Shown here: piece after piece, positions 17,805 through 63,180 of the stretch
Numbering within the stretch: position 1 is the stretch's first letter
How the letters are laid out: every line of letters starts with the position of its first letter
NCBI GenBank assembly: GCA_964016885.1
Contig: OZ024747.1
Span: forward strand, 88,660,001 to 88,724,000
Length of the DNA: 64,000 nucleotides
Reading direction: 5' to 3'
Origin: Eledone cirrhosa
Taxonomy: Eukaryota
Notes under the pieces: generated by a model
Databases searched by the model: none
The model's input: only the letters and a program-made list of their open reading frames with translations
Told to the model about the DNA's origin: nothing
Program-made: the position numbers and the translations under genes

Positions 17805-18022
17805 TGTTTTTACTTTAGACACAAGGCCAGCAATTTGAAGGGGAGGAGAAAGTCGATTAAATCGACCTCAGTGCATTACTGATACTTGATTTTATCGACC
17901 CCGTAAGGATGAAAGCAAGCTAACCTCTGCAGGATCTGTACTCAGATTGTAAAGGGATGTAACTCTATGCTGCAAAGCATAGTGTCTGACGCTCTGACAA
18001 TGCTACTAATCCACTGCCCTAA
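17805..18022 (-). mobile_element. SINE family A (long variant) whose 5' end seeds the adjacent minisatellite
   Basis: Family A body in reverse orientation, ending ...CTAATCCACTGCCCTAA. Confidence 0.85.
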
Positions 18023-19782
18023 GGCTAATCCACCGCCCTAAGGCTAATCCACCACCCTAAGGCCAACCCACCGCCTAAGGCTAATCCACCGCCCTAAGGC
18101 TAATCCACCACTCTAAGGCCAACCCACCGCCTAAGGCTAATCCACCGCCCTAAGGCTAATCCACCGCCCTACGACTAATCCACCATCCTAAGACTAATCC
18201 ACCATCCTAAGACTAATCCACCATCCTAAGACTAATCCACCATCCTAAGACTAATCCACCATCCTAAGGCTAATCCACCGCCCTAAAACTAATCCATCGC
18301 CCTAAAACTAATCCACCGCCCTAAGACTAATCCACCATCCTAAGGCTAATCCACCGCCCTAAAACTAATCCATCGCCCTAAAACTAATCCATCGCCCTAA
18401 TACTAATCCACCATCCTAAGACTAATCCACCATCCTAAGGCTAATCCACCGCCCTAAAACTAATCCATCGCCCTAATACTAATCCACCATCCTAAAACTA
18501 ATCCACCATCCTAAGGCTAATCCACCGCCCTAAAACTAATCCATCGCCCTAATACTAATCCACCGCCCTAATACTAATCCACCATCCTAAGACTAATCCA
18601 CCATCCTAAGACTAATCCACCGCCCTAAAACTAATCCATCGCCCTAAAACTAATCCATCGCCCTAAAACTAATCCATCGCCCTAATACTAATCCACCATC
18701 CTAAGACTAATCCACCATCCTAAGACTAATCCACCATCCTAAGACTAATCCACCGCCCTAAGACTAATCCACCATCCTAAGGCTAATCCACCGCCCTAAA
18801 ACTAATCCACCGCCCTAAAACTAATCCACCGCCCTAATACTAATCCACCATCCTAAGGCTAATCCACCGCCCTAAGGCTAATCCACCGCCCTAAAACTAA
18901 TCCACCGCCCTAAGACTAATCCACCGCCCTAAGACTAATCCACCGCCCTAAGACTAATCCACCGCCCTAAGACTAATCCACCATCCTAAGGCTAATCCAC
19001 CATCCTAAGGCTAATCCACCATCCTAAGGCTAATCCACCGCCCTAAGGCTAATCCACCGCCCTAAAACTAATCCACCGCCCTAAGACTAATCCACCGCCC
19101 TAAGACTAATCCACCGCCCTAAGACTAATCCACCATCCTAAGACTAATCCCCGCCCTAAGGCTAATCCACCATCCTAAGGGTAATCCACCACCCTAAGGC
19201 TAATCCACCGCCCTAAAACTAATCCACCGCCCTAAGACTAATCCACCGCCCTAAAACTAATCCACCGCCCTAAGACTAATCCACCGCCCTAAAACTAATC
19301 CACCGCCCTAAGACTAATCCACCGCCCTAAAACTAATCCACCGCCCTAAGACTAATCCACCGCCCTAAAACTAATCCACCGCCCTAGGACTAATCCACCA
19401 TCCTAAAACTAATCCACCGCCCTAAGACTAATCCACCGCCCTAAGGCTAATCCACCGCCCTAAGACTAATCCACCGCCCTAAGACTAATCCACCGCCCTA
19501 AGACTTATCCACCGCCCTAAGACTTATCCACCATCCTAAGACTAATCCACCGCCCTAAGACTAATTCACCGCCCTAAGACTAATCCACCGCCCTAAGACT
19601 AATCCACCGCCCTAAGACTAATCCACCGCCCTAAGACTAATCCACCGCCCTAAGACTTATCCACCGCCCTAAGACTAATCCACCGCCCTAAGACTAATCC
19701 ACCGCCCTAAGACTTATCCACCGCCCTAAGACTAATCCACCGCCCTAAGACTTATCCACCATCCTAAGACTAATCCACCGCT
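18006..19782. repeat. 19-bp minisatellite (GACTAATCCACCGCCCTAA)n, ~93 units, with variant units
   Basis: Period of 19 is visible. Variants GG/GA/AA/TA-CTAAT and CGC/CAT are interspersed. Confidence 0.97.
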
Positions 19783-58494: not shown

Positions 58495-59121
58495 GTATAC
58501 AACAACTACAACGGTACGCGATGGGGCCCACCCAGAGTCCCGGCGGACAGAATGGAGAAGGCGTTTCCCCGGAGGACGGCAAGGGAGACGCGCTGGAAAA
58601 GCCACTCCAACTCGCGGGGCTCACACCTGCGGCTGGCCAGCTCAGCACCTATGGTGGTGAGTAAGGAGGTAGCCCTGGGGGCCGAGGACACCAGAAGTCT
58701 CCACTGCCAGGGGTACAACCGCAAACCTGTCAGAGAGCGACCGGTATTTCAGGAGTTTGGCCCCCTCAGCCTGACGTTCAGCAGAACCTGGGTCAGTCGC
58801 AGACTACTCCAGGTTGCGCTGCAGAAAGTATCGGTGCAAGTGGCATCCCAGACGAGGGGTTTGCCACCGTGGAACGGGAAGATGGTCATGACATCTGGCC
58901 TTTTGCCATCCCCTCGATCCAGCCCCACCGGCTCGAGCTGGGAAGGGAAGCCTGCAGCGTCCAAGCCATGCTTAATGACCTCGTTGAGGGCAGCATGGCG
59001 CGGAATGCGGACGGCACTGTGGCGACAGGAAAGCGGGTGGAGGCCGAAAGAGTCCACGGTGGAACCGCAGCGACATTGGTGTGGCTGGCAGATCCGGAGG
59101 CTGAGCCTCAGGGAAACGCCG
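58495..59121 (-). mobile_element. 5'-truncated CRE-clade non-LTR retrotransposon (CCHC plus restriction-like endonuclease region), frameshifted
   Basis: 'CRCG...GLHPLSC...[12 protein letters not shown]...[31 protein letters not shown]' and 'E.R...LFQRVSLAVLRGNA' are characteristic of CRE-type RLE domains. The segment is GC-rich and is truncated at a TA run. Confidence 0.85.
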
Positions 59122-59233
59122 ATATATATATATATGTAAGTGTGTGTGTAGTTATGGGTACATATATGTGTATAAATGTTATATTTTAGGATGGTCATGT
59201 TGCTAATAAAATGCATATCTACAAATGATAAAT

Positions 59234-59283
<50 letters not shown>

Positions 59284-59336
59284 TATATATATATATATAT
59301 ACCTACATATATATATACATATACATATACATATAC

Positions 59337-59413
<77 letters not shown>

Positions 59414-59681
59414 TATATATATATATATACATATGCATATATACATATACATATATATATATATATATATACATATATATATACATTTACATATATATAT
59501 ATATACATATATATATATACATATGCATATATATATATATATACATATATATATACATGTACATATACATATACATGTATATATATATATATATACGTAT
59601 ATGTATATATATATGTATATATATATATGTAGGTATATATATATATAATTATATATATATATATAATTATATATATATATA

Positions 59682-59729
<48 letters not shown>

Positions 59730-59849
59730 TATAGACATAGAATATTCGAAAATATTCTGTATGTTTATAATAAACATTTTGAAGACCTAATCGCTATAGA
59801 ATAGAATACGTCACGTATTACAATTAGATTCTCGATAAAAGCAAGGGAA

Positions 59850-59892
59850 GTAATCTACGCGTTTCATTCTCGTTAGAAATCATCAGGACTAC
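59850..59892 (-). ncRNA. Type I hammerhead ribozyme (also at 60160-60202 and 60470-60512)
   Basis: Reverse complement of the 60588-60630 motif. Confidence 0.88.
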
Positions 59893-60587
59893 ATATCCAG
59901 TGCTTTTATCGAGAATGACACAGCTAGAGACTTATAGAATACTTAGCTGTGTACAGGAACTGGTTTGAAAGAGCGGTTGCCGGTCCGGCAGAAATTAGAA
60001 ATTGGAATAAATGCTCTGAAATAGCGATATATATGTGAATATAGACATAGAATATTCGAAAATATTCTGTATGTTTATAATAAACATTTTGAAGACCTAA
60101 TCGCTATAGAATAGAATACGTCACGTATTACAATTAGATTCTCGATAAAAGCAAGGGAAGTAATCTACGCGTTTCATTCTCGTTAGAAATCATCAGGACT
60201 ACATATCCAGTGCTTTTATCGAGAATGACACAGCTAGAGACTTATAGAATACTTAGCTGTGTACAGGAACTGGTTTGAAAGAGCGGTTGCCGGTCCGGCA
60301 GAAATTAGAAATTGGAATAAATGCTCTGAAATAGCGATATATATGTGAATATAGACATAGAATATTCGAAAATATTCTGTATGTTTATAATAAACATTTT
60401 GAAGACCTAATCGCTATAGAATAGAATACGTCACGTATTACAATTAGATTCTCGATAAAAGCAAGGGAAGTAATCTACGCGTTTCATTCTCGTTAGAAAT
60501 CATCAGGACTACATATCCAGTGCTTTTATCGAGAATGACACAGCTAGAGACTTTAGCTGTGTCATTCTCGATAAAAGCACTGGATAT

Positions 60588-60630
60588 GTAGTCCTGATGA
60601 TTTCTAACGAGAATGAAACGCGTAGATTAC
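60588..60630 (+). ncRNA. Type I hammerhead ribozyme (also at 60898-60940, 61208-61250, 61518-61560, 61828-61870, 62138-62180)
   Basis: GTAGTC-CTGATGA-T-TTCT[AACG]AGAA-T-GAAA-CGCG-TA|GATTAC. Stem I is extended by a 16-bp stem ATTCTCGATAAAAGCA/TGCTTTTATCGAGAAT. Predicted cut after 60624. Confidence 0.9.
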
Positions 60631-62337
60631 TTCCCTTGCTTTTATCGAGAATCTAATTGTAATACGTGACGTATTCTATTCTATAGCGATTAGGTCTTCA
60701 AAATGTTTATTATAAACATACAGAATATTTTCGAATATTCTATGTCTATATTCACATATATATCGCTATTTCAGAGCATTTATTCCAATTTCTAATTTCT
60801 GCCGGACCGGCAACCGCTCTTTCAAACCAGTTCCTGTACACAGCTAAGTATTCTATAAGTCTCTAGCTGTGTCATTCTCGATAAAAGCACTGGATATGTA
60901 GTCCTGATGATTTCTAACGAGAATGAAACGCGTAGATTACTTCCCTTGCTTTTATCGAGAATCTAATTGTAATACGTGACGTATTCTATTCTATAGCGAT
61001 TAGGTCTTCAAAATGTTTATTATAAACATACAGAATATTTTCGAATATTCTATGTCTATATTCACATATATATCGCTATTTCAGAGCATTTATTCCAATT
61101 TCTAATTTCTGCCGGACCGGCAACCGCTCTTTCAAACCAGTTCCTGTACACAGCTAAGTATTCTATAAGTCTCTAGCTGTGTCATTCTCGATAAAAGCAC
61201 TGGATATGTAGTCCTGATGATTTCTAACGAGAATGAAACGCGTAGATTACTTCCCTTGCTTTTATCGAGAATCTAATTGTAATACGTGACGTATTCTATT
61301 CTATAGCGATTAGGTCTTCAAAATGTTTATTATAAACATACAGAATATTTTCGAATATTCTATGTCTATATTCACATATATATCGCTATTTCAGAGCATT
61401 TATTCCAATTTCTAATTTCTGCCGGACCGGCAACCGCTCTTTCAAACCAGTTCCTGTACACAGCTAAGTATTCTATAAGTCTCTAGCTGTGTCATTCTCG
61501 ATAAAAGCACTGGATATGTAGTCCTGATGATTTCTAACGAGAATGAAACGCGTAGATTACTTCCCTTGCTTTTATCGAGAATCTAATTGTAATACGTGAC
61601 GTATTCTATTCTATAGCGATTAGGTCTTCAAAATGTTTATTATAAACATACAGAATATTTTCGAATATTCTATGTCTATATTCACATATATATCGCTATT
61701 TCAGAGCATTTATTCCAATTTCTAATTTCTGCCGGACCGGCAACCGCTCTTTCAAACCAGTTCCTGTACACAGCTAAGTATTCTATAAGTCTCTAGCTGT
61801 GTCATTCTCGATAAAAGCACTGGATATGTAGTCCTGATGATTTCTAACGAGAATGAAACGCGTAGATTACTTCCCTTGCTTTTATCGAGAATCTAATTGT
61901 AATACGTGACGTATTCTATTCTATAGCGATTAGGTCTTCAAAATGTTTATTATAAACATACAGAATATTTTCGAATATTCTATGTCTATATTCACATATA
62001 TATCGCTATTTCAGAGCATTTATTCCAATTTCTAATTTCTGCCGGACCGGCAACCGCTCTTTCAAACCAGTTCCTGTACACAGCTAAGTATTCTATAAGT
62101 CTCTAGCTGTGTCATTCTCGATAAAAGCACTGGATATGTAGTCCTGATGATTTCTAACGAGAATGAAACGCGTAGATTACTTCCCTTGCTTTTATCGAGA
62201 ATCTAATTGTAATACGTGACGTATTCTATTCTATAGCGATTAGGTCTTCAAAATGTTTATTATAAACATACAGAATATTTTCGAATATTCTATGTCTATA
62301 TTCACATATATATCGCTATTTCAGAGCATTTATTCCA

Positions 62338-62376
<39 letters not shown>

Positions 62377-62555
62377 GAAAAATTGAACAGGGACAGAACA
62401 GAGAGGCAGTACAATAAATGTTTATTAAATTCACGCTCAGGAGAGTGGGGGGTATATGCAATTTATCATTTGTAGATATGCATTTTATTAGCAACATGAC
62501 CATCCTAAAATATAACATTTATACACATATATGTACCCATAACTACACACACACT

Positions 62556-62633
<78 letters not shown>

Positions 62634-63040: not shown

Positions 63041-63180
63041 GGCGCATGGCTTAGTGGTTAAAGCATTGGGCTTGCAATCGAAAGGTTGTGAGTTCAATTC
63101 TCGGACCGGGTGATGTGTTATTTCCTTGAGCAAGACACTTTATTTCACGTTGCTCCAGTTTACTCAGCTGTAGAAATGAG
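63038..63180 (+). mobile_element. SINE family B 5' part
   Basis: A box TGGCTTAGTGG, B box GAGTTCAATTC, then TCCTTGAGCAAGACACTTTATTTCACGTTGCTCCAG. Confidence 0.85.

What the first reader, a model, noticed from the sequence alone, without database searches (positions are those of the whole stretch)
59722..62341. Young tandem array of 310-bp units each carrying a hammerhead ribozyme: candidate retrozyme / circRNA-producing element
Seen: an exact 310-bp period with no differences visible between units. Each unit holds a complete type I hammerhead (stem I GTAGTC/GATTAC, CUGAUGA, stem II TTCT/AGAA, GAAA, palindromic stem III ACGCGT, GUA cut site). There are six copies on + and three on -, and the unit has no ORF. 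The unit is also highly self-complementary: a 16-bp stem closes the ribozyme, plus ACACAGCTA/TAGCTGTGT, ATAGCGAT/ATCGCTAT, GAATATT/AATATTC and AATACG/CGTATT. Known: tandem HHR repeats of similar size (newt satellite 2, Schistosoma Sm-alpha, Dolichopoda pDo500, metazoan non-LTR retrozymes) are cut to monomers, several of which circularise, and palindromic stem III favours dimeric cleavage between neighbouring units. Inference: transcription would release 310-nt monomers (five from +, two from -), and the array is a rolling-circle reverse transcript of such a circle. I cannot tell whether this family is already described.
Basis: partly seen in the sequence, partly recalled or inferred. Interest (0 to 1): 0.95.

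Follow-up and report, generated by a model that had tools for sequence, protein, structure and literature searches.

The report
Active hammerhead retrozyme with Penelope-type insertions
A 310-base non-coding repeat carrying a self-cutting RNA motif has recently been pasted into this animal genome at well over a thousand places, and each insertion looks as if a Penelope-type retrotransposon enzyme copied one small RNA circle round and round, which would be direct genomic support for a copying mechanism so far only proposed.

Summary
The array is real: nine type I hammerheads in identical 310-bp units. It is one insertion of a young dispersed family: 18,393 intact cores, roughly 1,400-1,600 loci. 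79 of 94 insertions are two inverted arms with 3' ends outward. All 71 complete ones have one end near unit position 130 and the other near 165, not at the ribozyme cut, inside (TA)n. That is the Penelope-like-element (PLE) signature: inverted arm, 30-40-bp tail, two internal priming sites. Both arms carry the same monomer haplotype in 61 of 64 insertions, although 33 haplotypes exist, so each array was copied from one monomer, best explained as rolling-circle reverse transcription of an RNA circle. Ribozyme pairing is conserved across older sister families. Not shown: cleavage, expression, circles, the partner PLE. Rfam gives no hit, and the window's ribozyme is predicted to fold weakly. Verdict: new member of animal non-LTR retrozymes, with unusually direct mechanistic evidence. 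The scan noted PLE-type tandem units (tRNA-bearing, no ribozyme) in two other genomes.

The parts
59726..60553 (-). Left arm: 2.67 units, element 3' end pointing outward (left); outer end at unit position 130 (to 139 counting TA microhomology) = short end; inner end at position 233
60554..62341 (+). Right arm: 5.77 units, 3' end pointing outward (right); inner end at position 240; outer end at position 167 = long end
60548..60554 (.). Central head-to-head junction of the two arms (blunt by exact match, up to 6 nt shared by BLAST); lies in the loop of the 214-248 hairpin
62305..62341 (+). 37-nt 'tail' present at the long end only (positions 131-167), matching the 30-40-bp PLE tail
   Evidence: left arm matches right arm only up to 62304; PMC8557442 passages; PMC11167929
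60588..60630 (+). First of six + strand type I hammerheads (stem I, core, stem II with basal U.U, palindromic stem III, cut after 60624); repeats every 310 bp to 62180
60470..60512 (-). First of three - strand hammerheads (cores start 60506, 60196, 59886)
60874..60962 (+). 16-bp stem closing the second + ribozyme (60874-60889 with 60947-60962); covaries in sister families
60693..60789 (+). Unit positions 69-165: block most conserved with older sister families and containing both end positions; inferred recognition and priming region for the PLE reverse transcriptase
59237..59725 (.). (TA)n-rich microsatellite target, left flank
62342..62374 (.). (TA)17 target, right flank

Best explanation
A currently or very recently active non-autonomous retroelement of the animal non-LTR retrozyme kind. 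Inferred cycle: transcripts through an arm are cut by the hammerheads (probably as dimers through the palindromic stem III) into 310-nt monomers, which are closed into circles. A Penelope-like RT-GIY-YIG protein binds the block at positions ~69-165, nicks both strands of a (TA)n target and primes two cDNAs at internal sites ~130 and ~165. Each cDNA runs round the same monomer template 0.2 to >20 times; the two cDNA 3' ends are then joined by microhomology. Result: one insertion of two inverted tandem arms, 3' ends outward, a 35-nt tail at one end, one haplotype throughout. Shown in sequence: architecture, ends, target, clonality, structural conservation. Inferred: cleavage, circularisation, PLE enzyme, same RNA molecule for both arms.
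For: Family size 18,393 intact cores; 1,353 short-end/(TA)n junctions, 777 forward long-end junctions. 79 of 94 insertions two-armed; 30 of 33 among stretches chosen without regard to the far end (L166-L198). 71 of 71 complete ones have exactly one short and one long end; exact ends cluster at 130 and 165. Inverted 5'-truncated copy, 30-40-bp tail at one end and (TA)n bias are described PLE features (PMC8557442 passages); a purified PLE extends both strands and starts at two internal sites that bound the tail (PMC11167929). Both arms share the majority haplotype in 61 of 64, against 0.125 expected per pair for independent draws from 33 haplotypes, 24 of them seen once. Only 97 single-unit variants in 240,001 bp. 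490 of 491 joins across the cut site unchanged. Inner junctions show no pile-up at the cut site (chi2 p=0.30, n=158). All 7 propagated substitutions in the ribozyme of the first 53 insertions fall at positions I classed as tolerated (39 of 129 possible; p~2e-4). Sister ribozymes: 7 C3-G8, 11 U3-A8, 0 mixed of 18; 19 of 66 consensus pairs compensate. Intact PLE ORF and young PLE families exist in the genome.
Against: No RNA evidence at all. No autonomous PLE sharing the conserved block was found. Rfam does not recognise the ribozyme; the window haplotype is predicted to misfold; only 1 of 9 Xenopus retrozyme dimers cleaved in vitro (10.64898/2026.07.22.740005); the PLE tested in vitro did not need its hammerhead and used uncleaved RNA. 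12 of 94 insertions carry variants in some but not all units; two (L061, L172) have a variant at the same unit number in both arms, as a multimeric template would give, and L072, L187 switch haplotype inside an arm. Arm agreement could also come from a cell expressing one source locus. All sampled loci are from contig C1 plus the window.
Confidence: 0.72

Rival explanations
1. Same PLE-driven priming, but the template is a cleaved linear monomer whose ends are held together by stem I and the 16-bp stem; the RT jumps from the 5' end to the 3' end of the same molecule (a nicked circle).
For: Predicts the same clonality and ends; haplotype switches inside arms (L072, L187) show that template changes happen.
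Against: 490 of 491 cut-site joins are unchanged and inner ends do not pile up at the cut; jumps would be expected to leave scars and stops there (inference). Related retrozymes accumulate largely as circles (PMC7229834).
Confidence: 0.12
2. PLE-driven copying of long uncleaved read-through transcripts of existing arrays; the ribozyme is mostly silent and arrays are clonal because their sources are.
For: Mirrored single-unit variants in L172 and L061, mosaics in L166 and L049; predicted misfolding of the commonest haplotypes; hammerhead dispensable for the anole PLE in vitro.
Against: A new mutation arises in one unit, so it can fill arrays of 10-20 units only through a one-unit bottleneck followed by re-expansion; nearly all inherited variation is fixed across units (33 haplotypes) while mirrored unit-specific variants are rare (6 of 54 testable entries, from L072 and L172). 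No 3' flank carried along was seen at the outer ends printed.
Confidence: 0.09
3. DNA-level amplification: a satellite or extrachromosomal DNA circle expanded by rolling-circle replication or unequal crossover and inserted at fragile (TA)n sites; the hammerhead is a relic.
For: Tandem form; clonality fits any monomer circle.
Against: Fixed asymmetric ends 35 nt apart in 71 of 71 and divergent arms match PLE priming; post-insertion variants are mostly single-unit (97 singletons), unlike stepwise local duplication; ribozyme pairing is conserved with compensatory changes; A>G strand bias among propagated variants.
Confidence: 0.05
4. Assembly artefact (fold-back reads or collapsed units).
For: Units are identical and arms are inverted; raw reads of this assembly were not seen.
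Against: Arms differ in length and end (short arm longer in 32, long arm longer in 39 of 71); private haplotypes per locus; another run shows TA-joined loose ends at positions 139 and 170 (X5).
Confidence: 0.02

Closest known systems
Animal non-LTR retrozymes (coral, mussel, axolotl; Cervera & de la Pena 2020, PMC7229834, parts 2-4 of 6 read; Li, Clavereau & Pollet 2026, 10.64898/2026.07.22.740005, parts 1-3 of 5 read)
   Same: 150-450-bp tandem non-coding units, one type I hammerhead each, low GC, self-paired monomer, co-occurring PLEs; axolotl HHR_Amex2 also has a U.U at the base of stem II and works better as a dimer.
   Different: In the parts read, PLE mobilisation and rolling-circle RT are proposed from co-occurrence and pLTR similarity; two-armed inverted insertions, fixed internal ends with a tail, and one haplotype per insertion are not described. 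Here expression and cleavage are untested and no pLTR similarity was found.
EN+ Penelope-like elements (Craig et al. 2021, PMC8557442, passages; Frangieh et al. 2024, PMC11167929, parts 1-2 of 4)
   Same: Inverted 5'-truncated arm, 30-40-bp tail at one end, (TA)n targets, ends at two internal sites downstream of the hammerhead cut.
   Different: No ORF; unit is 310 bp and arms reach >20 units; hammerhead has a full stem II.
Non-autonomous Chlamys PLEs such as MRC1 (PMC8557442 passage)
   Same: Non-autonomous, multicopy head-to-tail insertions driven by a PLE.
   Different: Those resemble their autonomous family at the 3' end and the clade mostly lacks hammerheads; here a hammerhead is in every unit and no partner was found.
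Newt satellite 2, Schistosoma Sm-alpha, Dolichopoda pDo500
   Same: Tandem hammerhead repeats of similar size.
   Different: No sequence comparison was made.

Membership tests
Animal non-LTR retrozyme | Tandem units of 150-450 bp, GC below 50% | tested here: met
   310 bp, 107 G+C of 310
Animal non-LTR retrozyme | Type I hammerhead in every unit | tested here: met
   Core and stems in all 9 window units; 18,393 intact cores; covariation. Rfam models do not hit
Animal non-LTR retrozyme | No protein coding capacity | tested here: met
   Longest stop-free frame 59 codons
Animal non-LTR retrozyme | Dispersed at many loci | tested here: met
   1,353 short-end junctions; 94 insertions examined
Animal non-LTR retrozyme | Stable self-paired monomer | tested here: met
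   z=-3.9; circular MFE -67.8 kcal/mol
Animal non-LTR retrozyme | Self-cleavage of the transcript | not testable with these tools
   Needs in vitro transcription; folding predicts a weak monomer, dimer duplex -9.5 kcal/mol
Animal non-LTR retrozyme | Expressed as a circular RNA | not testable with these tools
   No holder on record as RNA
Animal non-LTR retrozyme | Absence of PBS and polypurine tract | not tested
   No LTR-like structure in 94 insertions; PBS/PPT not searched
Animal non-LTR retrozyme | Target-site duplication where visible | tested here: inconclusive
   Targets are microsatellites
PLE-mobilised element | 30-40-bp tail at one end only | tested here: met
   Ends at 130 and 165; one of each in 71 of 71
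PLE-mobilised element | Inverted 5'-truncated copy next to the 5' end | tested here: met
   79 of 94; inner ends spread over the unit
PLE-mobilised element | Insertion bias for (TA)n | tested here: met
   TA-type microsatellite at the outer ends of the 11 arrays chosen by core alone; later sets were chosen on one TA junction and show TA at the other end too
PLE-mobilised element | Sequence similarity to the pLTR of an autonomous PLE | tested here: inconclusive
   None in 47 stretches by nhmmer or among other hammerhead families in held loci; a small part of 10,596 GIY-YIG candidates
Autonomous PLE | RT plus GIY-YIG ORF | tested here: not met
Classical satellite DNA | Long single-orientation arrays at few loci | tested here: not met
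   Mean 8.5 units per complete insertion, two orientations, >1,300 loci

The most novel reading that the evidence does not exclude
Both arms of each insertion are copied from one and the same covalently closed 310-nt RNA by a dimeric PLE reverse transcriptase starting at two sites 35 nt apart, which would explain the PLE tail and inverted arm in one step; and A-to-I edits made on that circle (hot spots at positions 276 and 20) are written back into the genome and drive the family's evolution.
Probability: 0.3. Interest if true: 0.82.

Novelty: new member of a known kind. Interest (0 to 1): 0.62.

Why it matters
Retrozyme spread by PLE-driven rolling-circle reverse transcription has been a proposal since 2020, and how PLEs make inverted arms and tails is still open. 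This family is so young (0.04% post-insertion change) and so numerous that each insertion records its template and both priming sites. It gives a 310-nt minimal substrate with natural haplotype barcodes, so the circle, same-template and two-start-site questions can be tested directly in vitro and in genomes. It also predicts that described retrozyme arrays in other animals have the same overlooked two-armed anatomy.

Tried and rejected
Rfam: no hammerhead hit at gathering score or E<=10. DNA search of the genome with the unit was blank because common words are skipped; patterns were used instead. Partner hunt: canonical-core pattern gave 5 unrelated places; 30 GIY-YIG loci, 12 long-ORF stretches and those 5 gave only sister-retrozyme insertions and weak hits; other hammerhead families scored at or near shuffle level; single-arm insertions end in microsatellite, not in a second element. 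Pfam scan of flank ORFs: 1 RVT_1 hit in 9. Fold-back of one cDNA rejected: either arm can be the longer (32 vs 39 of 71). L1-type twin priming on one linear RNA rejected: inner ends do not cluster at the second start (the expectation is recalled). The 120-bp inverted flank pair in the window is not a general feature (a non-simple inverted flank match in 6 of 53 insertions) and seems to belong to other elements. Sequencing runs: no RNA holder listed; 20 holders under 18 organism codes, but of the 4 laid, 3 hold one low-depth contig of the unit (depth 3-365) and one of these has flanks like restriction-ligation joins, so cross-contamination is not excluded and no horizontal-transfer claim is made. 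Host taxon not established: the PLE protein's named relatives are mollusc-associated; 'octopus-like' is my recalled impression from microsatellites and a tRNA-derived repeat. The active-fold energy and two pairing rows used a wrong register and were discarded (16-bp stem redone). No paper could be read for the U3-A8 core variant; its activity is recalled. Supplement of PMC7229834 could not be read and bioRxiv supplements are closed; either could show insertion anatomy or cephalopod families. No earlier finding by sequence.

Full report
Observation. The repeat is as described: 2.67 units on - (59726-60553) and 5.77 on + (60554-62341), period 310, no mismatch, nine hammerhead cores. Positions below count from the predicted cut (position 1 = window 60625). 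Stem I is 274-279/1-6, core 280-286 and 301-304, stem II 288-291/296-299 over a U.U at 287/300, stem III a palindromic hexamer, closing stem 250-265/13-28. The monomer folds better than shuffles (z=-3.9) and has no frame over 59 codons. Against: Rfam finds no hammerhead, and in the window haplotype stem II has probability 0.13-0.15 because its 5' side pairs with the catalytic GAAA (0.72-0.82); the natural 287A haplotype folds correctly (0.9). An axolotl retrozyme with the same U.U cleaves 22% as a monomer and better as a dimer (PMC7229834), and the palindrome forms a -9.5 kcal/mol duplex, so weak monomer and dimer-assisted cleavage is the likely behaviour (inference).

Family. The window lies in a 3.0-Gb genome. 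The exact 37-nt core occurs 4,055 times, the core allowing observed variants 18,393 times, an internal 32-mer 15,046 times; reversed controls 0. Unit-to-(TA)n junctions number 1,353 for the short end and 777 forward for the long end (its reverse count is inflated by the variable gap), i.e. roughly 1,400-1,600 insertions (inference).

Insertion anatomy. I examined the window and 90 stretches of contig C1: 10 chosen by the core alone, 40 by a long end, 40 by a short end. They hold 94 insertions; 79 are a - arm followed by a + arm, 3' ends outward. Of the 15 others, 3 are cut by a stretch edge or N gap, and 7 came from left-over short ends lacking a long-end hit and so are biased to single arms; among the 33 stretches without that bias, 30 are two-armed. 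In all 71 with both outer ends visible one end is at 125-150 and the other at 157-175, never two of a kind; exact ends peak at 130 and 165 in the first 53. None ends at the ribozyme cut. Central junctions: 44 share 1-7 nt, 8 blunt, 17 with extra bases, 10 with longer overlap, of 79; their positions are spread over the unit (p=0.30); either arm can be longer (32 vs 39), arm lengths correlate weakly (rho 0.31); one arm exceeds 22 units. An inverted 5'-truncated copy, a 30-40-bp tail at one end and (TA)n bias are PLE features (PMC8557442 passages). A purified anole PLE nicks and extends both strands, is modelled as a dimer and starts at two internal sites that bound the tail (PMC11167929). The match is the basis for naming a PLE as the enzyme; the genome has 10,596 GIY-YIG candidates and intact young PLEs, but no partner sharing sequence was found.

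One template per insertion. Over 240,001 aligned bases there are 97 single-unit variants (0.040%), while 33 haplotypes are fixed among 82 insertions of 700 nt or more, 24 seen once. Where both arms exceed 345 nt they share the majority haplotype in 61 of 64; independent draws would agree with probability 0.125. Dropped before counting: 12-25 nt at arm ends, units with deletions of 3 nt or more (junction misalignment), three junction variants of L174; three variants present in all units but one were counted as fixed. Joins across the cut are unchanged in 490 of 491 (first 53 insertions). A mutation arises in one unit, so fixation through long arrays needs a monomer bottleneck with re-expansion, and the scarcity of shared partial variants argues against stepwise DNA duplication (inference). 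Rolling-circle RT of a monomer explains this. Exceptions: 12 insertions have partial variants; L172 and L061 show the same variant at the same unit number in both arms (multimeric template or conversion), L072 and L187 switch haplotype within an arm, L166 and L049 are mosaic. Same haplotype does not prove same molecule if one source locus dominates a cell.

Selection on the RNA. In the first 53 insertions all 7 propagated substitutions in the ribozyme lie at N7, loop II, or keep or gain a pair (39 of 129 possible changes classed as tolerated by my own rules; p~2e-4). No propagated change hits the 12 core bases among 30 sites, which alone is not significant, while 5 singletons do. Older sister families (5,263 motif hits) align over the whole unit, keep the same ends, show compensatory changes in 19 of 66 consensus pairs (10 related rows, no phylogenetic control) and covary C3-G8/U3-A8 (7, 11, 0 mixed). 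Positions 69-165, which hold both ends, are the best conserved block, so I infer it is the RT recognition element. Propagated changes are enriched for sense-strand A>G (8 of 30 vs 5 of 81, p=0.006; vs T>C p=0.05), recurrent at 276 and 20; editing of the RNA or selection for wobble pairs could cause this.

Comparison. It meets every sequence-level feature of animal non-LTR retrozymes that I tested; cleavage and circular RNA could not be tested. The 2020 paper proposes circRNA templates and names PLEs as strong candidates; a 2020 review says the repeats show no motif pointing to the helper (PMC7761336 passages); the 2026 preprint adds co-occurrence and pLTR phylogeny in vertebrates and found 1 of 9 dimers active. 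In these texts I saw no account of two-armed clonal insertions or of this family. Searches: (0 papers); subscription papers and the supplements were not seen. Two earlier scan notes describe ribozyme-free, tRNA-bearing tandem units with PLE-type ends in other genomes (seen after my reading was formed, unchecked).

Verdict. A new, very young member of a known kind, whose insertions give direct sequence evidence for PLE-primed copying from a single monomer template. Confidence 0.72 for the circle model, about 0.93 for PLE-type RNA-mediated insertion in some form. Interest 0.62.

Noticed in passing
L033:5875-6218, L087-L116, L118: Older sister retrozyme families (~317-320-bp units; 5,263 hits of a tail motif) alignable over the whole unit (72% column identity), same two ends and two-armed form, but different hammerheads, 11 of 18 with a U3-A8 core and longer palindromic stem III.
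   Followed up: partly
L199, L200: Intermediate 312-bp subfamily about 94-95% identical to the window unit, same ribozyme and ends; it polarises positions 277 and 295 as A>G changes in the young lineage.
   Followed up: partly
94 insertions, unit positions 2, 20, 92, 158, 218, 259, 262, 276: A>G on the ribozyme strand is 8 of 30 propagated substitution sites against 5 of 81 single-unit ones (Fisher p=0.006; against T>C p=0.05); 276 recurs on 4 backgrounds, 20 on 3. Fits A-to-I editing of the RNA, but 7 of 8 sit in A-U pairs where G.U is tolerated, so selection is a confound.
   Followed up: partly
window 59122-59241 and 62453-62572: Perfect 120-bp inverted pair bracketing the array; probably a short two-armed insertion of another family in which the retrozyme is nested. 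62375-62454 matches the end of a PLE seen after an RT-GIY-YIG ORF in L065.
   Followed up: partly
window 27291(-), 28822(+), 42602(-), 52611(+), 55808(+), 56290(-), 63525(-): Seven further type I hammerhead motifs of other families in the window; 63525(-) pairs with L041:2589(+) and the same motif brackets a PLE ORF in L062.
   Followed up: partly
L043:1217-4174: Tandem array of ~490-bp units with another hammerhead, six on - and one on +: a second two-armed retrozyme-like family.
   Followed up: no
L147:2809-5622 (-): Intact 938-codon frame for an RT + GIY-YIG PLE with a U3-A8 hammerhead on each side; family copies ~98% identical. Candidate active PLE, no sequence link to the retrozyme.
   Followed up: partly
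window 58749-59100 (-): Frame resembling the C-terminal restriction-like endonuclease of a non-LTR element (recalled motif); the + frame there had no Pfam hit.
   Followed up: no
window 63047-63104: tRNA-like head (Rfam 29.8 bits) after a (TG)n run; probably a tRNA-derived SINE.
   Followed up: no
window 18005-19781: 19-bp minisatellite, 94 copies, strong strand skew.
   Followed up: no
runs X1-X20: Near-identical unit words in 20 runs under 18 organism codes; X1 and X3 hold one exact 340-nt unit contig at low depth, X5 hundreds of variants at very high depth. Contamination or spread between species not resolved.
   Followed up: partly
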